From contig JBGSYZ010000011.1 of the NCBI GenBank assembly GCA_041750655.1, positions 1,794-65,793 on the forward strand: 64,000 nt of DNA, in the 5' to 3' direction. This stretch comes from Minisyncoccia bacterium (lineage in GTDB: Bacteria > Patescibacteriota > Minisyncoccia > Phycocordibacterales > UBA918). The notes under the pieces are model-generated. The model was not told the origin of the DNA. It saw only the letters and a list, made by a program, of their open reading frames with translations, and searched no databases. This document shows, piece by piece, positions 26,201 through 50,401 of the stretch. The position numbers and the translations under genes were made by a program. Numbering within the stretch: the first letter of the stretch is position 1; every line of letters begins with the position of its first letter.

Positions 26201-27103
26201 TGTAGTAGCTGCTGGTGTAGCAGTAATAATTGGAGGCGTGTTAGTGGCTGGTATAATCTCGTTCGGAACACTGGTCGTTGCAGTAACAGTCTCTTCGCCT
26301 GAGTTTGAAGTTGAAGGAATAACAGATTCTTCTAAGGTCGGTTCCGCAACGAGTGTACTATCACCAGCATCGTCATCAACAAGATCAACACTTTCATCTT
26401 GCGCCACTGGTGTAGTAGTGCTTTCGTTCATAAACGGCAGCCATTTAGTAACAGAGGATAGCACCCAGTTAAGGCCGCCTTTAGCCTTCTTAAATGAGGT
26501 TGTGGTTGGGAACTCTTCGTTATTTACATTGACCTCTGCTTCATACTCAATGTCAGTGTCTGCAGTTTCTACATCAGAATTGGTTTGAGTTTCAACTTCT
26601 TGAGTTGTGGTTGTTTCATCAACTTTATCAATTGTTGGTACTTTAGAGTCATCTATAACTTGTTGACTAGGCAAAGGTGTAAGTGAGCTTGCATCATTTA
26701 TTTTTTCTTCATTTCTATTTTTAATAATCTGCTCGATTGGAACCTCTTCTAAATTAAACCAAGCAGAATTTATCTGATTGAAATCTTGATACAGTGCTAC
26801 TTCACTAACATTTTGTTGGACGAGAGTTTCAGCATTGTTCCAGCCAGGTGCTGAAACTTTACTTGGAAACACATTAATTACTTGGATGTTATAAACGTCC
26901 GCATCATCTGCCGATACTATGTACCAACTAAGTGCTACGCCTGACAACATTAGTAATACAGTAGTAAGCAAATAGGTTTTTTTTCTGAAAATGAAAGATC
27001 TAGACAAGTAACTACTAACAAAAGCCCACGAATATGATTTTATCGCTTTAAATAAGGCTTTATGTAATTTTGCTACTCTTGAATTATGAGGAAAATCTCG
27101 CAT
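8240..27103 (-). CDS. Giant (6287 aa) membrane-anchored multidomain surface protein (adhesin-like): DUF2341+LamG modules, Fn3-like modules, beta-helix super-repeats, Cys-rich C-terminal domain
   Basis: Single uninterrupted 18.9-kb ORF. N-terminal TM at aa ~44-63 (nt 26915..26974). Acidic Ser/Thr/Asp-rich low-complexity stretches at aa 120-320 and 600-700. Three DUF2341-type modules, each with W..R.PITI..., DG.DIRF and Y.YYGN. Two of them (aa 837-995 with 1010-1250, and aa 3226-3330 with 3340-3570) are each followed by a LamG/ConA-like lectin-fold region; the third (aa 5545-5645) is followed by a lectin-fold-like region I did not classify. Two Fn3-like modules ending in TYWWRVR..DP.G...W..WS (aa ~1880-1995 and ~2140-2255). 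Long T/G/S/N-rich stretches typical of parallel beta-helix. Three ~780-aa super-repeats (aa 3596-5530). The aa-to-nt mapping was verified at the DLRFTK codons (nt 10322..10340). Confidence 0.85.
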   Translation of the reverse strand: MRDFPHNSRVAKLHKALFKAIKSYSWAFVSSYLSRSFIFRKKTYLLTTVLLMLSGVALSWYIVSADDADVYNIQVINVFPSKVSAPGWNNAETLVQQNVSEVALYQDFNQINSAWFNLEEVPIEQIIKNRNEEKINDASSLTPLPSQQVIDDSKVPTIDKVDETTTTQEVETQTNSDVETADTDIEYEAEVNVNNEEFPTTTSFKKAKGGLNWVLSSVTKWLPFMNESTTTPVAQDESVDLVDDDAGDSTLVAEPTLEESVIPSTSNSGEETVTATTSVPNEIIPATNTPPIITATPAATTTELPSGTLKAVDNPDSVVVPSVSDPCGEMCAEYTIQLSDFGLPIFNDKFSVHGAQLKVSFAAKLKKTRDAAQLFKLRYSFDNGASWSEAGKITITEEVTNGTNGGYFLFALPEISDSDTLNNLMIELVYDDDPRALDGLFVESAWLELFALESPDVTEDNLTLLTDNGYDDQILKGDTLKLPDGTNIDFTFTDDNTNETLIIKSDKVNYPGLSKSTLYFNVTNISKSEDTFKLQTYFPDGIGQVTNIEEWNSNKPKDVVVPEYKPFVYHCEAGWELTNNPVNSNLEDISKLLAPSSDNTTTIEPAVIPESEQNNFDNGNSEPDTSDQVDISKDTPEETSQPGPVNDVETPTEDLESGPDTNDETLKSVDNEAPLLQSTIQNNLSTATSSSETDDESDEVLATTYVCRNTNIVRECDEIDGDNTACRINDVKVREHKLVQYVDGWEPETVVEGTPEDKRSLFKKAKDWLGFGPDIKPKPDTFEVRAHTPNEYTIAPGETKYFKMEISFPPLTTGEFWIEAIGDDEYGLLDPFWASQWNYRLPITIDNTSGTSNLTEQQVFLELNSSLTNFWANVNDDGSDIRFVQETTTGTEDAWYGTGWSDRIPITIQSSQVDSDQTDFPVYVNLADLGTDFFNTVKSDGGDIRITESDGTTEVPYELVSINTGADTGELHFKGDVSSSVDTTFYLYFGNSDAVGYAETDTYGAQNVWNSEFIAVYHLEEAAAGRGTAGLYQDSTSNEYDADDQLNSSGKTGLLGQGQEIDAQGDASEYMLLPSDIVNGETELTFMYWMNSSEAGNQALINGGANNEYLLYNTGGGTTLQFFPGATISINDLSIAPNWRHVLISRDTVGNEWKAFIDGVEDDNSPSSQSLSTLSIPDNCLVLGLEQDVSCLSSGDTSQHLNATIDEMRFLNVVPGDDWITATYRNQSTTTDFYATSTRESFTNTVFSELDYWLQHFSTSTDEADVWVQVDSLPAGASTTIYMYYGNAAATPASDEFAPFTYSTTTPIYYAVEGLTGGTISVYSYVDNNLVSIDGGTPVPLDSGEPTTFSSYSSTSVISSLGPIAATIDSAGGDILAPISFATTTFAVPTTRNTSSYYIHSPFASSTINTYLGNSGTPSQTFSVATGTTGRSTTDGSGSNGVVITSTQPVLVYHMETGSRDSFVSYPPTTRDIFGIYTGSAYISTVTDNPNPTVYCSGGSSATVSGVTRGEQQSIGTCTSTGQGAGGAARLTNALYPITAIQQADGDGNESSAFWARHEMGTQYYIPTDSAYVAIACSPRFGTTTLEVQQNDGTFVEGATCTPGANTPGKVYFDNGQGGSALAFIAGYKVVSTNGVPFYAIYEDDEEDNDETNMLGGVQGRKYANRFFGYSFGAQEVTIDAEYEQLSFGWYENSTNQTPTSTWPLGEGSFATEGIAITGQGAVNDGDVMRLRMNLQANVATGSASSTAFKLQYVEADTGQCSVATAWSDVGEIGSTTAAFNGYNNGSLIDGTILSSTTLASSTVSETYEEENLSEFLQNTINPGEVGEWDWTITSNNASVNSNYCFRMVRSTGIELVTYTSYPELETAGPPLAPTLISFFNNERTASSSPVVLDFAATDIAGDDIRYQIQVDDDVAFGSPVIDKNSQTSLSQFENVNTPSDKTPFDSGARIRFTGTGSLTASTTYWWRVRGLDPSGSNTWGDWSTAYSFTTDGSVTVSEWHQTTGDQFSTNALTSLSTSTGAVSVSGSSGVMTSTAIDFDDATVGNAWGSVSWGDTETSGTILYQIEYLNGSSWSLIPDSAIANNSVGNGTSPINLLDLDTDTYNQIRLVANFTGTSLSIQDWTVVWGQRVETPTLGDPFDNEKIATTTPALDFTTTDPQGDLLEYEISWGTDYTFVSSTTRNSSTSPGFSSGNPYASGASVTYTIQSGEALTNGQTYWWRVRAKDPYGGDAWSPWSAPDAFTVDTSVSVSTWFQTTREQFQQGTLNGLTASTSGSVTISNEVGEYGKVILDAGTWTEISTQVSYNDPVVVASLRYSMTGDAQRSVRVRNKTADSFEMIVDDPFGTLTGTTTVDYLVMETGVWTLQDGAGGTQVIAGTYANVSDVQGGGGYAASGYGADVTFSPPFSVPPAVIATVSTENDSSWVIAHLNDGNTRNNPPTASAMGLYLGRSNETAVHSPEDIDYIAFEPGHGTNNGAEFDADFGTDSHDEAPPTAEAFTSAFSPSAPEVVIVMQGAEQGGNGAWASLYAATPPTTSNYYPVVDESGDRNHTTEPILTLAFENASGVLLRDSTVGGDLTGEIYSEPILFSDGAGPKFEQLLWNDTEPGTSTITYRLQYLTSTSSWAYIPDAALPNNSIGTTTSPIDLTGLNVSTYNTLRIVGSFSCASGNCPSLQDWTIEWSEGVLMSGTLKQYDRSTNVTSGTVRAAVNGSLLGNTGTVSAGVWSISNVTAFAGDVVTVWVDGAAEANEAVAVFVYDGTGDITGVQMFEQHLSLSSDENGTTTNALLGAYDNSVSGDEDIFFDVDGSNDLSVCAISGCSEASLYIGSGDVYIPDVTSSGNVTTHDFINSGRVELDANTVRVSGSWKNNATFLPETSTIIFTATSTSETVDDADNILDFQNLTFGETSGTATWQTYDPVDVNGALNVTYGTLNRASSTITVAGNLTTGANGFWSGVSTTTFDGSGTSFWSDSNTVKQNVGRVVVDGGAKTITLSSSVYASSTTIGANDTLNAGGANTLFLAGNFTNDNVFSAQTGTIQIVGTSTNAIIKTNGSSLYNVTASTTGSGSISFSESSVSMLGNLTIATGTVTLATATTTIGGSFLNTGGTFAHNNGAVRFTGSGSKSVTLGGTTFLNHLYNVTFAGSGTYTFADINATTSNILRITSGNVVLPSGQLSVARNFITSGSGSFSHNNGEVVLLIEGNDTVTTNGSSFNNLRIRQGSGGSGSWYGSQWTSRVPITIRSSVIDGDLSNFPVYVDLSDLPSAFFSGINTGGGDIRITQSDGITEVPREIVSASTTAETGELYFKASSVSSTTDTIFYIYYGNATATDYAVTATYGAQNVWNNGYVLVSHMNDETTSTIVNSANGSLDGTKLSANNPPQTNLGQIYEAQNFAGTEHIAYGNVGSGAANITISAWINPSNLTGSGDTNTYGYSIFSAHSAGAYTWLTVGGSGGGGSTDEVRFCAFSSSVTCNVANGSNINTGEWHYVSATAIDGGAAAVRVDGNNVLSFTSDGGGTWNSGSTIGDLRPNRDIEFEGILDEIQISNVVRSTAWQDATYRNQGTTTDFYAVGSPQQDSVRTMADINTTVTGNMTVESGQVILPTGVLSIGGSFDNNDGFDANDGTVLFNSTSSSETIAPGSSSFYNLSFNSVSGDWTIIENATSTNNVTLTNAGTLTLNSGLSLYVGGEFTSAVGGASTTWTGSNIILGSGTDYVINTKTAPSDVYATLTVTGDGDVSLWNSSATIYNMLSTASLYSQDHTGVDGDLYIFGNYVRTSGTEHWSYLTDFDGVSLATTTPRQVDVRIQNGATVIASSSGLSIVGSSTASTTIDAQSGSFTLRTNTASVTAQYFEVTGTNASGFQLTSSSTVNTFNNAYFRIPAASSAVTVDASTIDTTPAKQFFDTDFVTAGGNVNVTLSGSPTSYWWFRDGAGDRYGEAFDNADGNPGSIRWDDSSYSIVVSGTVYADDGNSTLGGPTCDGVTNSVRIVVDGGVYSSSTPCSGVDGSYSFGAVNYVGDPSIIVYLDTNGGTTGSVITKTPTANITNLDIYANRVMTRHEDLAPLTIADMAVYDESDDTDIRFVAATGTTDTLTVRADNELYIFASTTFAPGGPVTLTSGGTGNVYDGTLHLGATSTFTGVGTTTYNVGGSIIVEPAAKLTTASSTFVMTATTTGKTITASSTLAFNTLQFTGVGGGWNLNTNITATSGINVATGTLTGTANVTVTNGSFYGDGLVSFGAGTVAIYRSNTYGGVQSWTVNNLTLGNGTVVGTTTPGGTATNTVSGVLTINAAHFLDANNSAWNLTGSGSVFVENGTFLEDTSTVRYGGVLGNTVRNTQYYNLTVEASGGTPTFTAAATGLPVLNNLRVGGTAPTTFTLDTNDPVGSIGGDVYIASNGTLVGSNSATLTVGGAWDNDGTFTNSGGTVTFNSTDAFTIAAGASSFGVVNISGAGAATVIENATSTGAWTLGTTSNFTLNSGNRLAVGGLFTNGAGGAATTWTGSTLHLFGAGQFTINASTTLDQYENLSAAAGTHIRMWNSSATSYLTASGGSVYSMDHLNVTGELYIFGDYIKSSGTDYWSYATDFDGTTLGSGRAVDVYVENGGSFTYSGGSLQMIGSTTASTTVQVQGGSGTYSADITGGGINAQYYILQDLDNDGLTFSGAPTVTTLSNGEFIIGNTGATAMTVAGSVINANPAKNFINNRFATSTGVTAATNVTTSGSTVSSWRFTNHTGDVDGEDFDADNGNPGYIVWDDSLAVITISGNVYENNTSSVSSVCDDVTTNIVLAVAGVVVPAASSTCSSATGAYSISGVSFSPNDTLTLFINSNGGDQGVTVSIDPISSVGDMDIYEDHVILRHESTDPILIADMAVYDSVNDSDIPFTAVDAGSDTLTLNTNTKLIVWANKEFEPQGNITTGGGISDALDGTVELRDNAILTLANTENHAIGGNLEMGTGSVFTPAQSTVTFTSAGSGRTIATNETGFYNLILNGSGTFTSSDTSLRVANDMTLTAGTLTLPNATTTITGSLSVTGGNFVANGGLIVFDSTTAETVVANNSDFNRLLFNGTGSWSMNDTNATATGAITIQKGAVTLPSGVLSVGGSFRNTGGSVVDNTSLLVISTSTSATLLASSSDLYGVTFTGGGTFTMEDNSLTLLDDLILNSGSLTLASGTLSIGGSLDATGGTFTHASGTILFNSSDAGETINPGNNNFNNISIASASGGWTMLTNATTTGNFLLTNAASYTQTAGTVLAVQGVFSNSVGGAATTWTDSTLKLLSGSDYSINTKSAGGDTYGTLYIYDGMDIRMWDSSAATTTLASTSISSLYSQDHANTPGYLYIYGNYTIATGTEYWSYATDFDGTALGGGSRAVNVFVVDSASSSITQTAGNLNIIGAATASTSIQALGGTNYSFDINAGTFNARYYQLRGLDVNGLTFSGIPTVSSLSNGDFEVTVDGGSAITLASTTLNANPSKLIDNVRFATTTAISAFNVNLDATTTNAWTFRDHVGNLSGEDYDADGIDACGSIRWDDSACLLVEQTHYRWRHDDGGEGVPTSEWFDTDWGARQRVRIVNADNATYATTTIKIPVTYDADMQADFEDLRFTKSDGVTELDYWIERYTASSDATVWVEVFELPAQGNLDIFMYYSNVTATTTSSSSATFVVVDDFESGLSGSYSGDTSLFTVDSSFAFGGTKGLDTTGFESSRATDGIASFDRTVSQGQIIRYMQYIDTGAGSSDESCAMFGVQSPVTSNINYGVCLEQFGIERMSLVENVESTDNYGSVNILASTTLTYATGWYEVEIDWQTDNTIDVYLYNSGGTLVATTSAADSSHSSGGFGFTYWGQNGGWDSFTSRYRTNTKPTVIFGAEQTDGGASWATALDTAANTFVIGDVARVRFAVENSGLGITGQQFQIEYAAKGAAPACEAVSAASYNSVPVQSSCGSSPVCMVSSTYYSDGDNTTDLLLETNGTFTSGKIKEDPSSITASLDIDQNEYTELEYAVSPTVNATSSAYCLRVTNAGTDLDSYLSVAELGVAFDPTITAWSLNGGADITLSPGTTTVITASGTVTDLNGYTDLAGATSTTFRSGVTETCTEDQNNCYRSAAPQCAYSACAGNSCTLSCTFDVYYFAEATDMAPYSGETWRSFIELSDQSGATTSAFAPSVDLLTINAITLASTTNSINYGSLTPSADTGSYNATTTVENIGNGNIDISIDGTDLTDGGASTIPVSEQKFASTTFDYSACAFCTTLATTSSAIEVDLFKPTSTTTPVVADVYWGIQIPFGTAAAPHQGSNTFYAVTD
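10516..16318 (-). repeat. Protein-level tandem super-repeats (about 780 aa each, three copies, the third truncated) inside the giant gene
   Basis: Units begin at aa ~3596, ~4397 and ~5163. Each has a beta-helix-like block ending ...TTWTGS.L.L.....Y.IN, then (I/L)(R)MW(N/D)SSA..., YSQDH/YSMDH, LYI(F/Y)G(N/D)Y, WSY.TDFDG, GNPG(S/Y)I(R/V)WDDS, and in units 1 and 2 also ADMAVYD. Copies are diverged at roughly 40-50% identity, so this is not a DNA-identical repeat. Confidence 0.65.
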
Positions 27104-27117
27104 TCAATAACAAGCCA

Positions 27118-27140
27118 CCGATTCTAAAATTAGAATCGGG
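27118..27140. promoter_or_regulatory. Perfect 10-bp inverted repeat 15 nt upstream of the giant-gene start codon (candidate operator or 5'-UTR hairpin)
   Basis: ccgattctaa-aat-tagaatcgg at 27118..27140; the giant gene's ATG is at 27103..27101. Confidence 0.35.
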
Positions 27141-27154
27141 CTTAAGTATAAGTA

Positions 27155-27187
27155 TAGCGCGCCAACCCTTAAAGTTGGCGCGCTTAC
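27155..27187. terminator. GC-rich hairpin between the cohesin-like gene and the giant gene (candidate terminator or attenuator)
   Basis: tagcgcgccaac-ccttaaa-gttggcgcgct, a 10-11-bp GC-rich stem in an otherwise AT-rich intergenic region. The flanking T-run in minus-strand orientation is weak. Confidence 0.35.
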
Positions 27188-27229
27188 TGTGGAGTAGTGA
27201 GGATTGTTTTAACCTCCCAGGTCTATATA

Positions 27230-28765
27230 CTACTTCAAAATTTTCTTTACGTCATTAATTTCTTTCCCAATTAAAGTTTCCGAAACCTCCAGAGCGTTGT
27301 TAAGTCCTTCAACTGCTTCTCGTTCTTTCTTAGAAAGTCGTGGTCGTTTGGTTATTAGATTGATTTGATCGTAGATCTCGTCACGAAGGGCTGAGAATAT
27401 TTTTTCCATTTGATCTTGTATCTCACGGGTCTCCTTGCTTAATTTTTCTTCCCGTTTAGCATTTTGTCGCTTTTCATAGATATGATAAGCAAACTGTAAG
27501 ATATTAAGAAGTATCAACAAGAAGATAAAAATATTGCCAGGAGTTAAGAATGACCAGAAAGATTTTTCTTCATCTGTTTGACTTGGTGTAATCCAACCAG
27601 CTGTAATCAAAACCGGAGTTGAAGCTTCATACTTATTACCAGCCTTATCAAAAGCGGTCACTTTAACGGTATACGTACCATCCTCAAGTTCACCCAGCAG
27701 ATAACCTAATGCTGCTTCATCAGGGGTCACTATAACTGGTTCCCCGCCAGCAATCGTCATTTCATAACGCTCAATACCGGAAGTGCTATCTTCTGCTTTA
27801 AAGGTAAGAAGTGGAAAAGCTGTTTTAGCATTACCTGTTTGTACTTTGATATCAAACGGTAATGGGGCTTTCGTATCCACCATTATTTTACGATTCAACA
27901 CCGCCCCCCAACCAACTTGGTTTTTAAATCTAATACTCAAATACTGGACACCATCTTGTAAGTCTTCAGCAGTAAGAAGTAACTCTTCTATTGGCGGGGT
28001 GTACGTTTTTTCTGGAACGTGATCACTGGATGTAGACATTTCTACTGCTACTTCGTCGATATCAAAAGGTAAATCCCAAGCAAAGAGAGCGGTGTTAGTC
28101 GCGTACCAAGTTTCAGGGTCAATAAAAGTTTGTGAACCTACAACGGGAGCACGTGGAGGTTCACCGAAGGCAATAGTAGCGTCAGTCGGTTCGTTGTTAT
28201 TTGGAGTTTCAGTTGGGGTAGGAGTTGGTGTCTCTGGTTGCGGTTGTGGTGTGGTGGCAGCAGTAATAGTGTAGTTAGCAGTTACAGCGGCACCGATAAT
28301 ATCAGTCCCCTTTCCATCCGCTGCTAAAGCTGAGGCTGTATCAAATTTTACTTGAGCCGTACCCTCGGTTACAGCTCTAAAGGTAACCACGGCTAAATTA
28401 GAGCGAGAAGAAAAGGGTGAAGGGCTTCCACCTCCAAATTCAATGGTTCCGGCACTATTGGAAAAAGTTGGTTCAGTGGTCCAGAGTGAAAAAACCGAAC
28501 CGGTTTTTGAGACACTGACCACAGAAAGAATTGCCGGGTTAAAAGAAATTTTGGCCTCTACAGCATTGACACTTGCTCCTTTGGGATCAACCTGAATAGT
28601 CGCCGTAAAAGTTTGCCCTGAACTATAAGAACCAGTGGATGGACTGAAAAGAACGTCGGCCGCCAATACTGACTGCTGGAAACCAAACAGTAACAAACCA
28701 AAAAGAAAAACTTTAAAAACAAGTTTTAATACTATCTGAAAATAAATGTGTCTCTCAAGGTTCAT
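27230..28765 (-). CDS. Membrane-anchored protein with N-terminal cohesin-like domain, Pro/Thr linker, extracellular domain, TM helix and cytoplasmic coiled-coil tail
   Basis: 511 aa. Signal peptide (LFGLLLFGFQQSVLAADV). aa ~35-165 (nt ~28270..28663) reads VLFSPSTGSYSSGQTFTATIQVDPKGASVNAVEAKISFNPAILSVVSVSKTGSVF...AGTIEFGGG...LAVVTFRAVTEGTAQVKFD, which fits the cohesin (type I) beta-sandwich pattern. Linker TPQPQPETPTPTPTETP. TM IFIFLLILLNILQFAY at aa ~400-420. Lys/Glu-rich C-terminal tail. Confidence 0.6.
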   Translation of the reverse strand: MNLERHIYFQIVLKLVFKVFLFGLLLFGFQQSVLAADVLFSPSTGSYSSGQTFTATIQVDPKGASVNAVEAKISFNPAILSVVSVSKTGSVFSLWTTEPTFSNSAGTIEFGGGSPSPFSSRSNLAVVTFRAVTEGTAQVKFDTASALAADGKGTDIIGAAVTANYTITAATTPQPQPETPTPTPTETPNNNEPTDATIAFGEPPRAPVVGSQTFIDPETWYATNTALFAWDLPFDIDEVAVEMSTSSDHVPEKTYTPPIEELLLTAEDLQDGVQYLSIRFKNQVGWGAVLNRKIMVDTKAPLPFDIKVQTGNAKTAFPLLTFKAEDSTSGIERYEMTIAGGEPVIVTPDEAALGYLLGELEDGTYTVKVTAFDKAGNKYEASTPVLITAGWITPSQTDEEKSFWSFLTPGNIFIFLLILLNILQFAYHIYEKRQNAKREEKLSKETREIQDQMEKIFSALRDEIYDQINLITKRPRLSKKEREAVEGLNNALEVSETLIGKEINDVKKILK

Positions 28766-28771
28766 AAAGAT

Positions 28772-29233
28772 CTATTTCTTGGTCGGTTTGGCTTGTTTAA
28801 TTTTAAGTTGAACCTTTGCTTTTTCTTCTGGTGCAAGCATTGGCAAAATTAAAATTAACACTCCATTTTTTATTTTAGCCTCAGCGTGGGTGATATCAAC
28901 ACTTTCAGGCAAAATGATTCTTCTATAAAAGTCCCCCCAAATACATTCTTCAGTGAAGAAAGCCCCGTCCACTTTTTTTCTGGGAAACGCAATATATTCA
29001 GGACGCAATCGCTTACCTTCAATCAACACAATGTCCGCATCACCCTCAATCGAAACATGCACATCTGATAGGTCGGCTCCCGACGCTTGGGCATACACCA
29101 CAATCAGATTATCTGACTGGAATACATCCACGTCGAGTTGCACGATTTTATCGAGAGCTGTTTCTTCCTCACTGGATTGCAGACGTTGATTTGCTCGAAC
29201 ACCCCGCCCCTTGAGTCTCTGTAAAAAGGACAT
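28772..29233 (-). CDS. Hsp20/alpha-crystallin family small heat-shock protein
   Basis: 153 aa. Alpha-crystallin domain features (...FPRKKVDGAFFTEECIWGDFYRRIILPESVDITHAEAKIKNGVLILILP...). Size and motif order are typical of bacterial sHSPs. Only 6 nt upstream of the cohesin-like gene, so probably co-transcribed. Confidence 0.7.
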   Translation of the reverse strand: MSFLQRLKGRGVRANQRLQSSEEETALDKIVQLDVDVFQSDNLIVVYAQASGADLSDVHVSIEGDADIVLIEGKRLRPEYIAFPRKKVDGAFFTEECIWGDFYRRIILPESVDITHAEAKIKNGVLILILPMLAPEEKAKVQLKIKQAKPTKK

Positions 29234-29590
29234 ATGACTATATTCTACTTCATTTTTATTTAAATCACTGGGATTTTATTAACAAGCTGTGGGTAAGGAT
29301 AAGTGTAAATTTTCTTAATAAAGACAGCAAAGAAAGATTTGTCAACTATAATCTCTATAACATTTAGTAGTAATGGGTAGTTAGCGCTCTCGAAATAAAT
29401 ATTTGGTTGAACATTTGTGCTTTTTTCACCTATCACCTCATATATCGGTGATTTCAGTCTGGAGACAGGAGCGGATGACTTGTAGTTTCAAAATATACTG
29501 AAATCTTAATGTAAAGTTCCTTTCCACCTCGGCCTGGTCGTACTCGCTATCGCTGCGTGCGACATCGGCCGCCCAGTCTAGGGACTGGAG

Positions 29591-29624
29591 CGGGTTAAAA
29601 AGTCCGCCAGGACTTTTTAACCCG
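29591..29624. other. Perfect 15-bp palindromic hairpin overlapping the stop codon of 29617..31455
   Basis: cgggttaaaaagtcc-gcca-ggactttttaacccg; the stop codon TAA (rc of 29617..29619) lies inside the 3' arm. No adjoining U-tract on either strand. Confidence 0.4.
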
Positions 29625-31455
29625 TCCATTGGAATAGAAGAATTGAGAAGTCGGTGAGTGAAGTGTTGCCATCGCGGTTTATGTCAGCCGGTGGGTTTGA
29701 ATCTCCACCATTAGTCCCCCACCAGAAAAGTAAAATCGAGAAGTCTATCAAGTTTACTTTTCCATCACGATTGAGGTCAGCATTAAGCACTGAAGCTGTT
29801 TCACCAACTCCGTAAAAGGTATAGTCAGAAAATCCAGTTGACACGCCTCCTGCCTGAGTGGCTCTGGCTCTAATTTTGTAGGTACCTTTAATAAAACCAT
29901 CAGTAGGAATACTTAACGTCCACTTACCATCATTACCAGAATTGGCAGTAAATGTCTTCTTTGAGGCAGTTGTTTTATCATGTTCGTTTTCGATAGTGAC
30001 GGTAGCGTTTGGTATGGAGTATCCAGAAACCGTCAGAGTCTGTCCGGGGTCAACCGGATTCGGGTTTACCGAAATTGAGGGCATGATATTAATATTGGAA
30101 AGTGTGGAGGTACGACCACCAGTCACTGTGAAGGTAGTGGTGAACGTTGTTGAGCGAACATTATTTCCATCGATAGCATAAATACCAAAGCTATATACGC
30201 CACGAGCAATAGCATCAAGGGTGACCGCAAACTTACCGTCACTGCCGGCTGTGCCTATTTGAGCAGAGGCACCATCAACCATAACGACCACTTTTTTATT
30301 AGGGAAAGCGTATCCATTAATAATCACTTTTGCGTCACCACTTGGATACGCATCATCAGTAGTTTCCAACCCACCACCTCCTTGATTACCTGTATCGCCT
30401 CCTGTTCCGCCGCCGGACCCGCCGCCGGAGCCTCCAGAACCACCGCCGCCGGTATTTCCGCCACTACTCCCAGAACCGGAACCAGAACCGCCGGTACCAG
30501 AACCGCTTCCATCATCGCTACCTTGAGTAGAAGTGCCGTTGTCACCCGGATTACCAGTCGGCGGCGCATCAATTGAAAACGAAATCAAATAATCATCAAT
30601 ATTTTGGTTACCCTCATCATCCTCACAACGAACAAAGTAATTATACGAAGTACTGGTAGCCACCGGTGTTTCAAAGCTATGAATAATTGAGCCAGTCACT
30701 GAAAACACACCGCCCATAGAAGCATAGGGTGTGCCGGAAGCAGTCGAGTAACGACAAACAGCAAACTCGTCAGTATTTAGTGACACAATTACATTTAGGG
30801 TCGTACCAGAAAGCAACCCATTGGGGGCACCGTTAAAACGTAATGGGGGCACTGTTTCAGTTGTGTCCACTGGACCAAGTGTAATTTGATCAACAATAGC
30901 AATCCAACCACGAACACTTATATCATTGGAGCCTCCCTTTTCAATAAAAATCGGATGCGAAGAAGTGGCGGTAGGATTAATTATACTGGCATCGGTGGTC
31001 GTTGAATTTGAAGTATGATTACCAACCAACATTCGTATATAAGAACCGGCTGGTATACCCGATGTACTGTTTAGAGTGACCGTTACATTTCCCGAAGTTC
31101 CAGTTGTGATACTCACTCCATCTGTTGAGGTGCTGGTGGTCGTACCGGTATCTCTTTGTATATAGCCACCACCTGAATCAACAAAAAGTTCAACCTGATT
31201 GATACCAAAGTTAGTAGCCGGGATAGTAAACGTGCCTGGTTCGGGTCTAAATCGCACATAATCACCTGGCTGTAAAGCAGTCGTGGTTTTAAATTGGATG
31301 GTATGTGTCGAGGTAGCCGCCGGTGCTGAAGTACCCAAAGTATCTTTATATTCAACAATATTAGCATCAACACTGTACGGAAAAACAGAAAAAATCATTA
31401 GCAGGGAAAAAGCCAACCATACATACCCAAAAAGACTGCGGACCATTGCGCTCAT
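29617..31455 (-). CDS. Secreted Ig-like-repeat protein with Gly/Ser-rich linker and C-terminal double dockerin repeat
   Basis: 612 aa. Signal peptide (LAFSLLMIFSVFPYSVDA). GS-rich linker (GSGSGTGGSGSGSGSSGGNTGGGGSGGSGGGSGGGTGG; GC-rich DNA at ~30360..30550). C-terminus ADLNRDGKVNLIDFSILLFWWG...ADINRDGNTSLTDFSILLFQWTG is two canonical dockerin Ca-binding segments (nt ~29617..29800). Confidence 0.65.
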   Translation of the reverse strand: MSAMVRSLFGYVWLAFSLLMIFSVFPYSVDANIVEYKDTLGTSAPAATSTHTIQFKTTTALQPGDYVRFRPEPGTFTIPATNFGINQVELFVDSGGGYIQRDTGTTTSTSTDGVSITTGTSGNVTVTLNSTSGIPAGSYIRMLVGNHTSNSTTTDASIINPTATSSHPIFIEKGGSNDISVRGWIAIVDQITLGPVDTTETVPPLRFNGAPNGLLSGTTLNVIVSLNTDEFAVCRYSTASGTPYASMGGVFSVTGSIIHSFETPVATSTSYNYFVRCEDDEGNQNIDDYLISFSIDAPPTGNPGDNGTSTQGSDDGSGSGTGGSGSGSGSSGGNTGGGGSGGSGGGSGGGTGGDTGNQGGGGLETTDDAYPSGDAKVIINGYAFPNKKVVVMVDGASAQIGTAGSDGKFAVTLDAIARGVYSFGIYAIDGNNVRSTTFTTTFTVTGGRTSTLSNINIMPSISVNPNPVDPGQTLTVSGYSIPNATVTIENEHDKTTASKKTFTANSGNDGKWTLSIPTDGFIKGTYKIRARATQAGGVSTGFSDYTFYGVGETASVLNADLNRDGKVNLIDFSILLFWWGTNGGDSNPPADINRDGNTSLTDFSILLFQWTG

Positions 31456-31508
31456 TACCCATATTATGACACGTTAAAAACTGTCTTTTATAGGATGTTC
31501 ACGGGTGG

Positions 31509-32315
31509 CTATTTCACACAACGAAAACCGATGGCGTCGCCAATCATATCTCCAGGGACATCGGCATGAACAGCATACACACCAGCATCATCACCACTTC
31601 CATAAAAACCACCTCTCATAATAGCCCATACTGAATTCTGATTGGTCCAAATGTAGTCATTGCCGTATTGCTCACTGCGAGTGGTAGTACTGGTCACAAT
31701 TGCAATACCTGAGGTATCAGCCGAAATAACATATCCTGTTTCAGGTAAATTTCTATCTTTCAACTTACCAGATACAACTTCATCACTGGTCCACTCCCAT
31801 ACATTACCTACTGTATCAAATACGCCGACAGCGGATTTACATTCCAAATTTTTTCCTGTTTCTGTTACCCCAGCTGTATCTATATTACACAAATCATTGT
31901 CCGGAGTACCAAGTGCTATCATGTGCCACTCTTCAGAGGTTGGCAGTCTCTTATCAGATTTAAGACACAAGGCAGCCGCTTGATCTCTTGTGACTGAGCG
32001 CCACGGCTTGGAACCTACTTTTGAAATTGCTTCACAACTTGAATTTTGAATATTTTCTAAAGTTGTTTTGGCATTATTTGGATTTGCATACAGGCAATTA
32101 GCAGAAGGGGAAGCTTCATACTCGTCAACACAGGTAAAACTAGCAGCGGTGGAAACCTCAATCATCCCCGCTGGACAGGTACCACCTGGGGCACCAATCA
32201 GTTGACCAAGCAACGTTGTGCGAGATCCAGAAAGTGTATCGGCCGCATCAATGCCGAGCGCAGTAATGACCGTAGCTCCAACCAAAACTAGAATTATTTT
32301 AAAAATTGATTTCAT
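31509..32315 (-). CDS. Secreted FGE-sulfatase/SUMF1-type (formylglycine-generating-enzyme fold) domain protein, tandem paralog 1 of 3
   Basis: 268 aa. N-terminal TM/signal. GNVWEWTSD motif, RGGFYGSG, C-terminal GFRCVK: the hallmark motifs of the FGE-sulfatase (C-type-lectin-like) domain. Confidence 0.75.
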   Translation of the reverse strand: MKSIFKIILVLVGATVITALGIDAADTLSGSRTTLLGQLIGAPGGTCPAGMIEVSTAASFTCVDEYEASPSANCLYANPNNAKTTLENIQNSSCEAISKVGSKPWRSVTRDQAAALCLKSDKRLPTSEEWHMIALGTPDNDLCNIDTAGVTETGKNLECKSAVGVFDTVGNVWEWTSDEVVSGKLKDRNLPETGYVISADTSGIAIVTSTTTRSEQYGNDYIWTNQNSVWAIMRGGFYGSGDDAGVYAVHADVPGDMIGDAIGFRCVK

Positions 32316-32324
32316 AAACCATTA

Positions 32325-33146
32325 CTACGTGTCAGCGACACAGCGAAAACCAACCGCCGAACCAGAAAAATTAAGTTCGACATCAGCATGAATACTATAT
32401 ATTCCCGCATCAGAACCACTTCCGTAGTAACCACCACGCATTGTTGCCATTATTCCATCTGGTCGTGACCAGAAATAGTCATCATGGAACATGACTTGTG
32501 CATCTTCTGATGTTTCAGTAGCTACTCCAGCACTGTCAGCATTAAGTACGTATCCAGATACAGGTAGTGGTCGATTATTATATACACCATCAACTACATC
32601 TCCAGAAACCCACTCCCACACATTGCCAATCATATTAATTGCCTGCGCTGCTGATTTACAATCTGAGTTTTTGTCAGCCGGTAGTACTGAATTGCCGTTG
32701 ACTGAACACTTTGATTCATCAGTTCCTAACGAGGCTTTATACCACTCTGTCTGATTAGGTAATCGTTTCCCTGCTTTGGCGCATAGTTCAACCGCCTGAT
32801 GATACGTAACATACGTCCATGGTAGTGCGTCCTCTACACTCTCTGGTAGACAACTAGCTTGTTGAATATTTTCTGCACTTTGTGAAGCATGACCAGGATT
32901 TTTTACAGGACAGTCTCGACCTACTGCTACTTCATACGTATCAATACAATAATCATCAACTCCATTTTCAACAAAAGCCATCCCGACTGGGCAACCACCT
33001 TCAGTCGCTCTATCAGCCAATAGTCCAAGAGCCGACTGAGAACCAGTAAGATACTGAGAGGCATCAATACCAAAACTGGTTAGTACCACAATACCAACCG
33101 TCACCATCAAAAAGCGAGCGCCGTTTTTAAACCACCTCATATACAT
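32325..33146 (-). CDS. Secreted FGE-sulfatase/SUMF1-type domain protein, tandem paralog 2 of 3
   Basis: 273 aa. GNVWEWVSGD, RGGYYGSGSDAG, GFRCVADT. Same architecture as its neighbours. Confidence 0.75.
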   Translation of the reverse strand: MYMRWFKNGARFLMVTVGIVVLTSFGIDASQYLTGSQSALGLLADRATEGGCPVGMAFVENGVDDYCIDTYEVAVGRDCPVKNPGHASQSAENIQQASCLPESVEDALPWTYVTYHQAVELCAKAGKRLPNQTEWYKASLGTDESKCSVNGNSVLPADKNSDCKSAAQAINMIGNVWEWVSGDVVDGVYNNRPLPVSGYVLNADSAGVATETSEDAQVMFHDDYFWSRPDGIMATMRGGYYGSGSDAGIYSIHADVELNFSGSAVGFRCVADT

Positions 33147-33196
33147 TTATTGTAGCACTCAACTAACCAAACCAGCTGTATTTATAAAGAAAAATT

Positions 33197-34000
33197 CTAT
33201 ATATCTTTTACACACCTAAAACCAAGTCCGTTAGTACGCAAATCAAACGGTACCGCTAGATTTTGAGCAAAAATACCAGCATCCTCTTCTCCGTCATAAA
33301 AACCACCTCGAATCATCCCGAACACACCATTTTTATTAATCCATGCATAATCGTTACCAAAATTAGATTGTGGACTAGAATCTGTTTCCACTACCACGCC
33401 ACTATTATCTACAACCTTAACGTAACCGGCTTCAGGTAAGTTTCTATCCTCGTATTTGCCGTCAGTCACAGATTCGTCTACCCATTCCCACACATTACCG
33501 ACTAAGTCATATAGACCAGCTTCTGTCTTACAATTGGTTGAAGCAGTCTTTTGTGGTTGTTTCTGATTTACCACACAAGAATCTTGATTTTGTAGGGTTA
33601 AGCTAAGTTTGTACCATTCTGATCCAGTCGGTATACGCTTCCCCACCCGAGCGCACAATTGCTGGGCTTCAGTTAATGACACAAAGCGCCACGGCACAAC
33701 ACCTGAACGAGATTCTGGTACGCAACTTTTTTCCAAAAGATTTCCAGCCGTATCAGCAGCCGTGTTGGTCTCAGGGTACGGACACGCAGCGGAGACACTA
33801 GCTTCAAAATTATCTACACATAAGCTATTGCCAGACATTTGCATAAGGGTTGCACCTGTTCCACAAATATTTACTTGTTCAGAGACCAATCCTGGTAAAG
33901 AACCTTCTATACCTCGGAGGATATCGCTCGCTTGAATTGCTAAGGTCGAAAGAACCAGTGCTCCCACACCAATGGCGGTTCCCTTAATTACCCTTCGCAT
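33197..34000 (-). CDS. Secreted FGE-sulfatase/SUMF1-type domain protein, tandem paralog 3 of 3
   Basis: 267 aa. GNVWEWVDESV, RGGFYDGEEDAG, GFRCVKDI. Confidence 0.75.
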   Translation of the reverse strand: MRRVIKGTAIGVGALVLSTLAIQASDILRGIEGSLPGLVSEQVNICGTGATLMQMSGNSLCVDNFEASVSAACPYPETNTAADTAGNLLEKSCVPESRSGVVPWRFVSLTEAQQLCARVGKRIPTGSEWYKLSLTLQNQDSCVVNQKQPQKTASTNCKTEAGLYDLVGNVWEWVDESVTDGKYEDRNLPEAGYVKVVDNSGVVVETDSSPQSNFGNDYAWINKNGVFGMIRGGFYDGEEDAGIFAQNLAVPFDLRTNGLGFRCVKDI

Positions 34001-38306: not shown

Positions 38307-38352
38307 TAATTTATTATACAAAAAATTGTACTGTTTTATCTCTTTTGAGAGA

Positions 38353-39789: not shown

Positions 39790-39849
39790 AATATGTGTGA
39801 CTCAAGTATAGTGACCATATTAAAGCATATCAATGTACAATATTAACGT

Positions 39850-41106: not shown

Positions 41107-41112
41107 ACGAGT

Positions 41113-48823: not shown

Positions 48824-49103
48824 AAAACAATTTATCGTTTATCAACATCAAGAAATACTGCGTTAGGTAACGCTTTTTTCAACATATTTTTAAACGAACA
48901 ACCTCCTTTAACTCACCTAGCATGTTGGTGAAAGTTATGTAAACATCCACAAAACTCTAAGTGCCGAAACTCTAGCACACTTTTATAAATTTGTCACTAC
49001 TTAGCCTCTTGATAGTATTTTGATTAGTACAATTAAAAAACTATATTTAGAGCCATATTATTAACATCTTTATAACCATTTTTGAATACCCATTTTTGAT
49101 TAA

Positions 49104-49128: not shown

Positions 49129-49133
49129 ATTTT

Positions 49134-50393: not shown

Positions 50394-50401
50394 AGAAAAA
50401 A

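What the first reader, a model, noticed from the sequence alone, without database searches (positions are those of the whole stretch)
27230..31455. Cohesin-like anchor protein and dockerin-bearing secreted proteins: a candidate cellulosome-style cohesin-dockerin surface-assembly system outside a cellulolytic context
The protein at 27230..28765 has an N-terminal domain whose sequence (VLFSPSTGSYSSGQTFTATIQVDPKGASVNAVEAKISFNPAILSVVSV...AGTIEFGGG...AVVTFRAVTEGTAQVKFD) fits the cohesin beta-sandwich pattern. It is followed by a Pro/Thr linker, an extracellular domain, one TM helix and a cytoplasmic coiled-coil tail, which is the layout of an anchoring scaffoldin. The protein at 29617..31455, two genes upstream in the same orientation, ends in two textbook dockerin segments (DLNRDGKVNLIDFSILLFWWG / DINRDGNTSLTDFSILLFQWTG). 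A second dockerin protein lies at 1..1024. Cohesin-dockerin pairs are established high-affinity protein-protein modules of cellulosomes. Here they sit in a locus of giant and other surface proteins with no cellulases attached, which suggests a general cell-surface docking system, possibly for attachment to a host cell. Only one cohesin and two dockerin proteins are visible in this window.
Basis: partly seen in the sequence, partly recalled or inferred. Interest (0 to 1): 0.8.

Follow-up and report, generated by a model that had tools for sequence, protein, structure and literature searches.

The report
Cohesin-dockerin surface tether in Paceibacteria
A tiny uncultured (CPR/Patescibacteria) bacterium carries a real cohesin module on a membrane protein and matching dockerin modules on two secreted proteins. 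This gene set is conserved in over 100 related species and sits among pilus-like and giant surface-protein genes, so the 'cellulosome glue' is probably used here to tether surface structures, though binding is untested.

Summary
The 511-aa protein (27230..28765, -) passes Pfam Cohesin. Its aa 36-180 fold with pLDDT 95.5 into a beta-sandwich, and the 50 best PDB matches are all cohesins, type I first. The 612-aa protein (29617..31455, -) ends in a Pfam-passing dockerin with intact Ca2+ loops. The cut ORF at 1..1024 shows one dockerin segment, and its 89%-identical 373-aa orthologue has the whole module.

New here:
- The order dockerin protein, HSP20, cohesin protein, giant protein is conserved in Paceibacteria. 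A dockerin ORF lies upstream in 102 of 105 readable loci, HSP20 in 141 of 141, and a giant ORF downstream in 91 of 92.
- The dockerin is the best-conserved part of its protein.
- The anchor's best-conserved part is its 79-aa cytoplasmic tail. Cohesin-less relatives keep the core and usually the HSP20, but have no adjacent dockerin or giant gene.
- The dockerin protein's N-terminal ~270 aa are paralogous to a neighbouring, weakly Pam-pilin-like protein.

Most likely mechanism: Ca2+-dependent docking of secreted, pilin-related proteins onto a single-cohesin membrane anchor. AlphaFold did not fold the dockerin, and covariation was uninformative. Non-cellulosomal cohesin-dockerin pairs are already known, so this is a new variant.

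The parts
27230..28765 (-). Cohesin-bearing type I membrane protein (511 aa): signal peptide, cohesin, Pro/Thr linker, two beta-domains, TM helix, cytoplasmic tail
   Evidence: ORF; Pfam Cohesin. The family has 987 hits, and the top 120 are 60-89% identical over the full length. Topology.
28265..28660 (-). Cohesin module (aa 36-167)
   Evidence: Pfam PF00963 at 29.4 bits against a cut-off of 24.1. AF2 pLDDT 95.5. The top 50 Foldseek PDB hits are all cohesins, with type I best.
28172..28264 (-). Pro/Thr-rich linker (aa 168-198)
   Evidence: Read from the sequence. Conservation is low, 0.58.
27590..28171 (-). Two extracellular beta-domains (aa 199-300 with the 'DPExWY' motif; aa 301-392 Ig/FnIII-like). 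This is the conserved core shared with cohesin-less relatives.
   Evidence: Weak Pfam Big_13/fn3 hits. PDB profile hits to SiiE Ig and chitinase FnIII domains. The cohesin-less relatives start here.
27476..27553 (-). Transmembrane helix (aa ~405-430)
   Evidence: Kyte-Doolittle window at aa 402-431, maximum 2.05.
27233..27469 (-). 79-aa cytoplasmic tail, nearly invariant across the family
   Evidence: Alignment A1. It is the most conserved region of the protein, 0.87. Of 178 representative proteins carrying this tail, the 150 listed all have it at or near the C-terminus.
28772..29233 (-). HSP20/alpha-crystallin protein (153 aa, no signal peptide). Its stop codon lies 7 nt before the anchor gene's start.
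   Evidence: Pfam HSP20, E 4.9e-10. It lies directly upstream of the anchor gene in 141 of 141 cohesin-positive loci and in 5 of 7 cohesin-less loci.
29617..31455 (-). Secreted dockerin protein (612 aa): signal peptide, pilin-like N-terminal region, Gly/Ser linker, two Ig-like domains, C-terminal dockerin
   Evidence: The family has 579 hits of ~600-625 aa.
29620..29790 (-). Dockerin module (aa 556-612): two 22-residue Ca2+-loop/helix segments. The protein ends directly after it.
   Evidence: Pfam PF00404 at 32.1 bits against a cut-off of 22.9. Positions D1, N3, D5 and D12 of both segments are invariant in alignment A3. It is the most conserved region of the protein, 0.84. PDB sequence hits are all dockerins.
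30556..31356 (-). N-terminal ~270 aa of the dockerin protein, paralogous to the pilin-like protein at 35615..36748
   Evidence: hhalign of the two families gives probability 99.3%, E 6.8e-21, over 237 columns. Pairwise BLASTP gives 25% identity, E 2e-4. AF2 pLDDT is ~90 for aa 33-190.
1..1024 (-). Second dockerin protein, cut by the window edge (341 of ~373 aa): signal peptide, Cys-rich DUF4215 repeats, Ig-like domains, and the first dockerin segment at 32..70
   Evidence: The orthologue P0241 (89% identical, 373 aa) has Pfam Dockerin_1 at 30.7 bits.
35615..36748 (-). Pilin-like protein (377 aa), first gene of the conserved upstream block. Its C-terminal 155 aa weakly match the CPR Pam pilin C-terminal domain.
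   Evidence: NCBIfam NF058581, E 2.4e-7, 30.9 bits against a cut-off of 55, covering profile positions 2-148 of 148. 6 of 8 orthologues also hit, all below threshold.
34421..35479 (-). WxL-interacting-protein-like membrane-anchored protein (352 aa)
   Evidence: Pfam WxLIP_PGBD in 22 of 24 family members. PDB profile hit to EfmWxLIP1, E 1.7e-5. TM segments.
8240..27103 (-). Giant surface protein (6287 aa, N-terminal TM, three DUF2341 hits) immediately downstream of the anchor gene
   Evidence: A giant ORF lies downstream in 91 of 92 cohesin-positive loci.
31509..34000 (-). Three paralogous membrane-anchored FGE-sulfatase-like proteins, a variable part of the conserved block
   Evidence: Pfam PF03781. 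They are present in 35 of 80 loci, with varying copy number.
1034..1978 (-). Second membrane-anchored protein (314 aa) with weak similarity to the WxLIP-like protein at 34421..35479, next to the second dockerin gene
   Evidence: Signal region plus a C-terminal TM. In two of the 80 loci p314 gives 26-29% identical tblastn matches at the locus position of the WxLIP-like gene. No Pfam hit.

Best explanation
This is a minimal, non-cellulosomal cohesin-dockerin tether in a Paceibacteria (Parcubacteria, CPR) bacterium.

The anchor. The 511-aa protein is exported by a signal peptide and held in the cytoplasmic membrane by one C-terminal TM helix. It holds a single type-I-like cohesin away from the membrane on a Pro/Thr linker and two beta-domains.

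The docked proteins. At least two Sec-secreted proteins end in a dockerin made of two Ca2+-binding segments. One is the 612-aa pilin-paralogue two genes upstream. The other is the ~373-aa Cys-rich repeat protein at the window edge.

The proposed mechanism. The dockerins bind the cohesin in a Ca2+-dependent way, one at a time, so that these proteins are retained on a cell that has no outer membrane. The two dockerin segments are near-duplicates, so binding in either orientation, as in type I dockerins, is plausible.

The wider block. The genes are part of a conserved, co-directional block of surface genes: pilin-like protein, WxLIP-like membrane protein, small TM protein, FGE-like proteins, dockerin protein, HSP20, cohesin anchor, giant protein. 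The tether therefore probably fixes part of a larger surface structure, not enzymes.

Shown here: the identity of both modules, the topology, the conservation and the synteny.

Inferred: that these two modules bind each other, the Ca2+ dependence, the stoichiometry, and the biological role.
For: Module identity:
- Pfam hits for both modules are above the gathering thresholds.
- The cohesin model is of high confidence and matches only cohesins among the top 50 PDB hits.
- The dockerin hits only dockerins in the PDB by sequence.
- The canonical loop positions D1, N3, D5 and D12 are invariant in both segments across 22 aligned orthologues.

Topology: a signal region, one TM and a K/R-rich stretch after the TM in the anchor. 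The dockerin proteins have signal peptides and no TM.

Linkage:
- A dockerin ORF lies on the same strand upstream of the cohesin gene in 102 of 105 related loci with at least 3 kb of upstream sequence. The loci come from 110 species-level genomes, all labelled Patescibacteria or a sublineage, plus metagenomes.
- There is exactly one cohesin and one dockerin module within +/-10 kb in these loci.
- The dockerin is the most conserved region of its protein, 0.84 against 0.56-0.71 for the other domains.
- Relatives of the anchor that lack the cohesin have no dockerin gene at the syntenic position in the three loci where that can be read (L082, L084, L167) and no giant gene.
- The second dockerin has nearly the same segment-1 sequence, DLNRDGRVDLIDFSILIFWW. 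This fits two ligands for one receptor.
Against: - No binding evidence of any kind was obtained.
- AlphaFold2 gave the dockerin pLDDT ~33 with no helices. The alignment was shallow (22 sequences) and no Ca2+ was modelled.
- Mutual information between dockerin and anchor columns shows no enrichment for the cohesin: 13 of the top 60 pairs against 16.8 expected.
- Three cohesin-positive loci (L004, L049, L107) lack an upstream dockerin ORF.
- The related loci share ancestry, so the conserved synteny is not a set of independent co-occurrence events. Only three informative cohesin-less loci were available.
- A whole-genome census of cohesins and dockerins was not possible, so other partners may exist.
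- The Pfam scores are only 5-9 bits above threshold.
Confidence: 0.62

Rival explanations
1. Both modules are genuine, but they are not each other's partner. The dockerin proteins bind cohesins encoded elsewhere in the genome or on a host or partner cell. The membrane cohesin receives other dockerin proteins. The adjacency reflects shared regulation of surface genes or inherited gene order.
For: Only 64 kb of the genome was seen, and only +/-10 kb around homologues. No co-evolution signal was found. Three cohesin-positive loci lack the adjacent dockerin gene. The synteny is within one clade.
Against: There is exactly one cohesin and one dockerin per +/-10 kb locus. The pairing is kept in 102 of 105 loci. 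Both modules are strongly conserved. The second dockerin protein carries nearly the same dockerin sequence. The cohesin-less relatives lack the neighbouring dockerin gene.
Confidence: 0.15
2. The modules have the cohesin and dockerin folds but do not act as a cohesin-dockerin pair. The dockerin would be a Ca2+-stabilised C-terminal cap or a glycan or cell-wall binding module. The cohesin would be a spacer or a ligand-binding beta-sandwich on a membrane protein whose real function lies in its conserved core and cytoplasmic tail.
For: The cytoplasmic tail, not the cohesin, is the best-conserved part of the anchor. Cohesin-less members exist, so the cohesin is dispensable for the family's core role. 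AF2 did not fold the dockerin. An essential dockerin-domain protein in a Saccharibacterium was discussed as glycan-targeting with no cohesin mentioned (PMC10633639).
Against: The closest structural matches are dockerin-binding type I cohesins, many solved in complex. The Ca2+-loop and helix residues of both dockerin segments are nearly invariant, as expected for a protein-protein interface. The cohesin and the adjacent dockerin gene appear together and are absent together in the loci that could be read.
Confidence: 0.15
3. The similarity is a chance or compositional artefact and there is no cohesin or dockerin.
For: The Pfam scores are modest (29 and 32 bits). A PDB sequence-profile search with the anchor family found no cohesin at E<=1.
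Against: The fold prediction and fold search are independent of Pfam and give only cohesins. The dockerin has two canonical 12-residue Ca2+ loops with the right spacing. Hundreds of orthologues carry the same Pfam assignments.
Confidence: 0.01

Closest known systems
Single-cohesin anchoring proteins of Clostridium (Acetivibrio) thermocellum (OlpA, OlpC), which bind type I dockerins directly at the cell surface (PDB 3ul4, 4dh2)
   Same: One type-I-like cohesin on a cell-bound protein is separated from the anchor by a linker. The ligands are secreted proteins ending in a two-segment Ca2+ dockerin. The cohesin model aligns to 4dh2_A at TM 0.76 and to 3ul4_A at TM 0.72.
   Different: Anchoring here is by a TM helix plus a conserved cytoplasmic tail, not by SLH repeats (the SLH anchoring of OlpA/OlpC is from my own knowledge). 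The ligands are a pilin-paralogue and a Cys-rich repeat protein, not glycoside hydrolases. The organism is a CPR bacterium with no cellulosome. Sequence identity is only 9-13%.
Type I cohesin-dockerin pairs of mesophilic clostridia (C. acetobutylicum CohA2-Doc0917, PDB 6kgf; C. cellulolyticum, PDB 2vn5)
   Same: These are the best structural matches (E 9e-11 to 5e-10, TM 0.68-0.75, ~20% identity). Both dockerin segments are near-duplicates, which suits dual binding. The 2vn5 entry title describes a dual binding mode.
   Different: Those cohesins sit in multi-cohesin scaffoldins that assemble enzymes. Here there is a single cohesin and no enzymes. Binding was not tested.
Non-cellulosomal cohesin-dockerin modules: Archaeoglobus fulgidus (PDB 2xdh), Clostridium perfringens glycoside hydrolases (PDB 2vo8, 2w1n, 2jh2), and the survey by Peer et al. 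2009, FEMS Microbiol Lett 291:1 (cited from memory; not held in the library)
   Same: The modules are used outside cellulose degradation. The cohesin model matches 2xdh at TM 0.71 and the C. perfringens cohesins at TM 0.62-0.67.
   Different: The lineage is different (CPR). The modules are embedded in a conserved surface-gene block. The cohesin sits on a TM protein with an invariant cytoplasmic tail that is paired with HSP20.
Pam pilus system of CPR bacteria (Troman et al., bioRxiv 2026, 10.64898/2026.03.03.709456). It comprises donor-strand-exchange pilins PamA/B/E/T, membrane-anchored chaperones PamC/D and the membrane anchor/terminator PamR.
   Same: The first gene of the block (35615..36748) has the pilin layout: N-terminal beta-domain, linker, and a C-terminal domain matching NF058581 over its full length. 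The dockerin protein shares that N-terminal region. The anchor core has the same layout as that described for PamR, two beta-domains plus a C-terminal TM.
   Different: All NF058581 matches are below NCBI's cut-off, at 19-31 bits against 55. No homology of the anchor to PamR, or of the WxLIP-like proteins to PamC/D, was shown. The paper does not mention cohesin, dockerin or HSP20. It reports Pam pilins mainly in Saccharimonadia and Microgenomatia.

Membership tests
Cohesin (Pfam PF00963) | Sequence match to the family HMM above the curated gathering score | tested here: met
   29.4 bits against a cut-off of 24.1, E 1.1e-6, aa 48-167 over profile positions 11-137 of 139. PF00963 is precomputed for nearly all of the 120 listed homologues.
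Cohesin (Pfam PF00963) | Nine-stranded beta-sandwich (jelly-roll) fold superimposable on solved cohesins | tested here: met
   AF2 pLDDT 95.5 and all-beta. The top 50 Foldseek PDB hits are all cohesins, with TM up to 0.76 and E down to 8.9e-11.
Cohesin (Pfam PF00963) | Binds a dockerin in a Ca2+-dependent manner | not testable with these tools
No experiment was possible.
Dockerin type I (Pfam PF00404) | Sequence match to the family HMM above the gathering score | tested here: met
   The 612-aa protein scores 32.1 bits against a cut-off of 22.9. The orthologue of the truncated ORF (P0241) scores 30.7 bits. The truncated ORF itself gets no hit at E<=1e-3.
Dockerin type I (Pfam PF00404) | Two duplicated ~22-residue segments, each with a 12-residue EF-hand-like Ca2+ loop (D/N at positions 1, 3, 5, 9 and 12) followed by a helix, joined by a short linker | tested here: met
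   The segments are DLNRDGKVNLID-FSILLFWW and DINRDGNTSLTD-FSILLFQW, separated by 10 residues. D1, N3, D5 and D12 are invariant in 22 orthologues.
Dockerin type I (Pfam PF00404) | Folds into the paired-helix dockerin structure | tested here: inconclusive
   AF2 on the full-length protein with 22 sequences gave pLDDT ~33 and no helices for aa 557-612. Dockerins need Ca2+ to fold (my own knowledge), and the alignment was shallow and nearly invariant there.
Cellulosome / anchoring scaffoldin system | Dockerins carried by plant-cell-wall-degrading enzymes, and cohesins arrayed on a scaffoldin | tested here: not met
   There is a single cohesin. The dockerin proteins carry pilin-like, Ig-like and Cys-rich repeat domains. 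The GH5-like (38353..39789) and GH18 (49134..50393) proteins have no dockerin.
Cellulosome / anchoring scaffoldin system | Cell-wall anchoring by SLH repeats or a sortase signal | tested here: not met
   No SLH or LPXTG hit in Pfam. The anchor is a TM helix plus a cytoplasmic tail.
Pam pilus system (CPR donor-strand-exchange pilus) | Pilin with N-terminal beta-sandwich, linker strand and C-terminal truncated Ig domain matching NF058581 above the cut-off | tested here: inconclusive
   The protein at 35615..36748 matches at E 2.4e-7 and 30.9 bits (cut-off 55) over the full profile. 6 of 8 orthologues score 19-28 bits. The layout is consistent, but the score is below threshold.
Pam pilus system (CPR donor-strand-exchange pilus) | PapD/FimC-like membrane-anchored chaperones and a PamR-like anchor encoded in the same operon | not tested
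   The WxLIP-like proteins and the anchor core have compatible layouts (beta-domains plus a C-terminal TM).
Small heat-shock protein (HSP20, PF00011) | Alpha-crystallin domain HMM match above the cut-off | tested here: met
   39.9 bits against a cut-off of 20.8 for 28772..29233. NCBIfam equivalog models for Hsp20, Hsp14 and Hsp18 match only below threshold.

The most novel reading that the evidence does not exclude
In Paceibacteria the cohesin-dockerin pair may be the membrane tether of a divergent Pam-like, donor-strand-exchange surface filament.

- The dockerin protein keeps the pilin N-terminal domain and linker region. It replaces the acceptor end with Ig domains and a dockerin.
- It could therefore cap the base of the filament and plug it into the cohesin of a PamR-like membrane anchor.
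- The anchor's invariant cytoplasmic tail, always encoded next to a cytoplasmic HSP20, would couple the structure to a cytoplasmic partner.

If true, this would be a use of cohesin-dockerin that has not been described, and a new way of anchoring a pilus in bacteria without an outer membrane.
Probability: 0.2. Interest if true: 0.8.

Novelty: new variant of a known kind. Interest (0 to 1): 0.55.

Why it matters
CPR/Patescibacteria make up a large share of bacterial diversity. Most are thought to live attached to other cells, and how their surface structures are built and anchored is largely unknown.

This work points to a conserved, single-cohesin membrane anchor with two matched dockerin ligands. 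One ligand is related to a pilin-like protein. That gives a concrete hypothesis for surface assembly in Paceibacteria, and it can be tested with three small recombinant domains.

It also extends the known uses of cohesin-dockerin modules, and it could supply a new orthogonal pair for protein engineering.

The invariant cytoplasmic tail and its constant HSP20 neighbour suggest that the anchor does more than hold a protein in place. That part is new as far as the searched literature shows: no paper in the held library links cohesin or dockerin to Parcubacteria or Paceibacteria. Automatic annotation already labels these proteins 'cohesin domain-containing' and 'dockerin type I domain-containing'.

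Tried and rejected
1. Co-folding the cohesin with the dockerin as a linker-fused chain.

2. Structural confirmation of the dockerin. The AF2 model of the full 612-aa protein left aa 557-612 unfolded. Foldseek of the whole model gave only generic Ig-chain matches. The top hit was the S-layer protein 7ptp_A, at TM 0.14, which is not informative.

3. Inter-protein covariation between dockerin and anchor columns, using 117 non-identical pairs. There was no enrichment for cohesin columns. The signal was dominated by clade-defining substitutions, and a control with an Ig domain looked similar.

4. The idea that the giant protein and the 635-aa protein end in a Pam-pilin-like C-terminal domain, based on an eyeballed 'YWGIxIP...NTF.AV' motif. 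This is rejected: hhalign probability is below 2%.

5. PDB sequence-profile search with the anchor family. It found no cohesin at E<=1 and only Ig/FnIII hits for the second beta-domain.

6. Recovering the missing C-terminus of the 1..1024 ORF and the source record through exact-protein look-ups. They failed or returned only a short contig. The question was solved through orthologues instead.

7. Promoter and terminator scan of 26900..31700. It did no better than shuffled sequence, so there is no evidence for or against a separate HSP20-anchor transcript.

8. A metagenome scan seeded with cohesin-less relatives. It returned mostly cohesin-bearing loci, so the presence/absence test rests on few cohesin-less loci.

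9. NCBIfam models for the anchor, the dockerin protein and the WxLIP-like proteins. Nothing useful came back, even at E<=10.

10. The Peer et al. 2009 survey of non-cellulosomal cohesins and dockerins could not be read.

Full report
OBSERVATION

The whole window is a run of co-directional genes at about 42% G+C.

The 511-aa protein (27230..28765):
- It scores 29.4 bits on Pfam Cohesin, against a gathering cut-off of 24.1, with E 1.1e-6 over aa 48-167.
- An AlphaFold2 model of aa 36-180, built on a 30-sequence alignment, has mean pLDDT 95.5 and pTM 0.86 and is all-beta.
- Foldseek against the PDB returns only cohesins among the best 50 hits. Type I cohesins come first: 6kgf_C (E 8.9e-11, TM 0.75), then 4ums, 2vn5, 1g1k, 4dh2 and 1ohz.
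- Non-cellulosomal cohesins also appear: A. fulgidus 2xdh, and C. perfringens 2vo8, 2w1n and 2jh2.
- Hydropathy shows a signal-type N-terminus, one TM segment at aa ~402-431, and a 79-aa highly charged tail after a K/R-rich stretch. This places the cohesin outside and the tail inside.

The 612-aa protein (29617..31455):
- It scores 32.1 bits on Pfam Dockerin_1, against a cut-off of 22.9.
- Its last 57 residues contain two 12-residue Ca2+ loops (DLNRDGKVNLID and DINRDGNTSLTD). Each is followed by FSILLF(W/Q)W, and 10 residues separate the two segments.
- The best PDB sequence matches are all dockerins.

The ORF at 1..1024 is cut by the window edge. It shows only one dockerin segment and has no Pfam dockerin hit of its own. 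Its orthologues are about 373 aa and carry a complete dockerin. P0241 is 89% identical and scores 30.7 bits.

A six-frame motif scan and family-specific HMMs find no further cohesin or dockerin in the 64 kb. The 6287-aa protein has only DUF2341 and Ig hits.

WHERE IT COMES FROM AND HOW CONSERVED IT IS

The cohesin protein belongs to a tight family:
- It has 987 hits. The top 120 cluster representatives are 60-89% identical over the full length.
- Two are named 'cohesin domain-containing protein [Candidatus Pacebacteria bacterium]'.
- A scan of one genome per species found 110 genomes. The 80 loci kept are nearly all labelled Patescibacteria or a sublineage such as Paceibacteria, Paceibacterota, Kaiserbacteria, Nomurabacteria or Parcubacteria, or generically 'uncultured Saccharibacteria'. 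A few titles say only 'bacterium', and one says 'Legionellaceae bacterium'.

I searched those 80 loci with the window's proteins. They show a conserved, co-directional gene order:

pilin-like 377-aa protein, WxLIP-like protein, small TM protein, a variable set of FGE-sulfatase-like proteins and/or an ABC ATPase, dockerin protein, HSP20, cohesin protein, giant protein.

I then reclassified all 166 loci, including 80 metagenome loci, in one uniform way:

| Feature | Cohesin-positive loci |
|---|---|
| Same-strand dockerin ORF upstream (loci with at least 3 kb upstream) | 102 of 105 |
| HSP20 directly upstream | 141 of 141 |
| ORF of at least 1500 aa downstream | 91 of 92 |

These loci share ancestry. 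The numbers describe conserved synteny within a clade, not independent events.

Within the proteins, the dockerin is the best-conserved region of the dockerin protein, at 0.84 mean majority fraction against 0.56-0.71 for the other domains. In the anchor the cohesin scores 0.74, and the cytoplasmic tail is highest at 0.87.

THE ANCHOR IS MORE THAN A SCAFFOLDIN

I searched the 82-aa tail alone against 1.84 billion representative proteins. It found 178 proteins, and in the 150 listed the tail lies at or near the C-terminus. They fall into two length classes:
- Proteins of about 470-590 aa have the N-terminal cohesin.
- Proteins of about 320-390 aa go from the signal peptide straight to the 'DPExWY' domain, the Ig-like domain, the TM helix and the tail.

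So the cohesin is an accessory module on a wider membrane-protein family.

The cohesin-less members usually keep the HSP20 gene directly upstream (5 of 7 loci). In the three loci where the syntenic upstream position can be read, there is no dockerin gene. In the two loci with long downstream flanks, there is no giant gene:
- L082: DinB C-terminus, HSP20, core protein.
- L084: DUF642 protein, CAP, GH18, HSP20, core protein, AI-2E transporter and housekeeping genes.
- L167: DinB C-terminus, core protein, AI-2E transporter and housekeeping genes.

In the window, DinB (37068..38414) lies just outside the surface-gene block. The simplest reading is that one lineage gained the cohesin together with the surrounding block of surface genes, including the dockerin protein. 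This supports a functional link, but the sample of cohesin-less loci is small.

WHAT IS DOCKED

The second dockerin protein carries Cys-rich DUF4215/myxo_disulf repeats and Ig-like domains.

The 612-aa protein has the following parts:
- a confidently modelled beta-domain at aa 33-190 (pLDDT ~90);
- a second beta-domain at aa ~205-300;
- a disordered Gly/Ser linker;
- two Ig-like domains;
- the dockerin.

NCBIfam gave an unexpected lead. The 377-aa protein at 35615..36748, the first gene of the conserved block, matches NF058581 'CPR_Pam_pilin_C'. The match covers the whole profile at E 2.4e-7 but is below the curated cut-off, at 30.9 bits against 55. Six of eight orthologues do the same, at 19-28 bits.

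Pam pili are donor-strand-exchange filaments of CPR bacteria, described in a 2026 preprint (10.64898/2026.03.03.709456):
- The chaperones PamC and PamD are membrane-anchored.
- PamR, with two FnIII domains plus a TM helix, terminates the filament and anchors it.

That paper does not mention cohesin, dockerin or HSP20. It reports the pilins mainly in Saccharimonadia and Microgenomatia, while noting that they may be more widespread.

A profile-profile comparison shows that the first ~270 aa of the dockerin protein are homologous to the 377-aa pilin-like protein. hhalign gives probability 99.3% and E 6.8e-21, aligning residues 19-263 with 12-282. The match includes the mature N-terminus and the 'RF.NG.P.G' linker region. 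The docked protein is therefore a pilin paralogue, not an enzyme.

The WxLIP-like protein family matches Enterococcus WxLIP1 (PDB 9i25, E 1.7e-5) and Pfam WxLIP_PGBD in 22 of 24 members. A relationship to PamC/D could not be examined.

MECHANISM AND RIVALS

The best-supported explanation, at confidence ~0.6, is a minimal cohesin-dockerin tether. A single type-I-like cohesin is held on a TM-anchored stalk. It captures the C-terminal dockerins of at least two Sec-secreted proteins in a Ca2+-dependent manner and keeps them on a cell that lacks an outer membrane.

Shown here: module identity, topology, conservation and synteny. Inferred: binding between these partners, Ca2+ dependence, stoichiometry and biological role.

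The main weaknesses are these:
- AlphaFold2 did not fold the dockerin.
- Covariation between dockerin and cohesin columns is no stronger than with other domains. That is expected when the interface hardly varies, but it gives no support.

The rivals are as follows:
- The modules are real but have other partners (~0.15).
- The modules do not act as a cohesin-dockerin pair at all, and the anchor's real job lies in its conserved core and tail (~0.15).
- The similarity is a chance artefact (~0.01, effectively excluded).

COMPARISON WITH WHAT IS KNOWN

In how it would work, the system is closest to the single-cohesin surface anchors OlpA and OlpC of C. thermocellum and to the type I pairs of mesophilic clostridia.

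It meets the tested membership criteria for the cohesin and dockerin families: HMM thresholds, the cohesin fold and the Ca2+-loop residues. It fails the criteria for a cellulosome, because there are no dockerin-bearing enzymes, no multi-cohesin scaffoldin, and no SLH or sortase anchor.

Non-cellulosomal cohesin-dockerin modules are an established phenomenon. Examples are the A. fulgidus and C. perfringens structures, and Peer et al. 2009, cited from memory. Annotation pipelines already name these CPR proteins.

A dockerin-domain protein was found to be essential in a Saccharibacterium, but it was discussed only as possibly glycan-targeting (PMC10633639). No paper in the held library links cohesin or dockerin to Parcubacteria or Paceibacteria.

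I therefore rate this as a new variant of a known kind. The anchor type, the cargo type and the lineage are new, and the operon conservation, the tail and the HSP20 link are new observations.

VERDICT

Interest is 0.55. The finding is ordinary as yet another non-cellulosomal cohesin-dockerin pair. It is more interesting as a conserved, testable surface-anchoring device in CPR bacteria, with a possible link to the newly described Pam pili and to a conserved cytoplasmic partner.

Noticed in passing
window 27233..27469 (-) and 28772..29233 (-): The 79-aa cytoplasmic tail of the cohesin protein is nearly invariant across the family and is better conserved than any extracellular domain. A cytoplasmic HSP20 gene always sits directly upstream: 141 of 141 cohesin-positive loci and 5 of 7 cohesin-less relatives. 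This suggests that the sHSP-like protein and the tail work together. No known family matched the tail.
   Followed up: partly
window 35615..36748 (-): The 377-aa secreted protein has a sub-threshold but full-length match of its C-terminal 155 aa to NCBIfam NF058581 (Pam pilus pilin, CPR). Six of eight orthologues behave the same way. This could be a divergent Pam-like pilin in Paceibacteria, a class outside the two (Saccharimonadia, Microgenomatia) where the 2026 preprint found Pam pilins most prevalent.
   Followed up: partly
window 8240..8990 (-) and 2129..2900 (-): The C-terminal ~220 aa of the 6287-aa giant protein and of the 635-aa protein are homologous (hhalign probability 97.3%, E 1.7e-11). 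Both are Cys-rich and end in 'YWGI(Q/E)IP...NTF.AV'. No Pfam or NCBIfam family matches this domain.
   Followed up: partly
window 8240..27103 (-): The giant 6287-aa protein has an N-terminal TM segment and three DUF2341 hits. A giant ORF follows the cohesin gene in 91 of 92 related loci. It carries no cohesin or dockerin.
   Followed up: partly
window 31509..34000 (-): Three tandem paralogues of membrane-anchored FGE-sulfatase-like (formylglycine-generating enzyme fold) proteins lie between the WxLIP-like gene and the dockerin gene. Their copy number varies among related loci, and in some an ABC ATPase replaces or joins them.
   Followed up: no
window 34421..35479 (-) and 1034..1978 (-): Two membrane-anchored proteins with signal peptides and C-terminal TM segments each lie near one of the two dockerin genes. 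The first is a clear WxL-interacting-protein homologue (PDB 9i25, E 1.7e-5), a family otherwise known from Firmicutes surface-protein clusters.
   Followed up: partly
window 4115..6641 (-): A MacB/FtsX-type ABC transporter lies downstream of the giant gene. Its ATPase (439 aa) has a long C-terminal extension beyond the ABC domain. Pfam MacB_PCD and FtsX are on record for the permease (L081).
   Followed up: no
window 38353..55670 (-): A further block of envelope and glycan genes, none with a dockerin: a GH5/GH39-like protein, a 1545-aa fusion of two GT4 glycosyltransferases with a DUF2206 membrane domain, a polysaccharide deacetylase, GT4, GT2, GH18, a CAP-domain protein, and a 933-aa DUF642 protein. 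GH18, CAP and DUF642 also neighbour the cohesin-less anchor in L084.
   Followed up: no
loci L004, L049, L107: Three cohesin-positive loci lack a recognisable dockerin ORF upstream. L004 keeps only a fragment of the dockerin protein gene. In L049 the FGE-like gene abuts HSP20. These could be losses, relocations or assembly problems.
   Followed up: no
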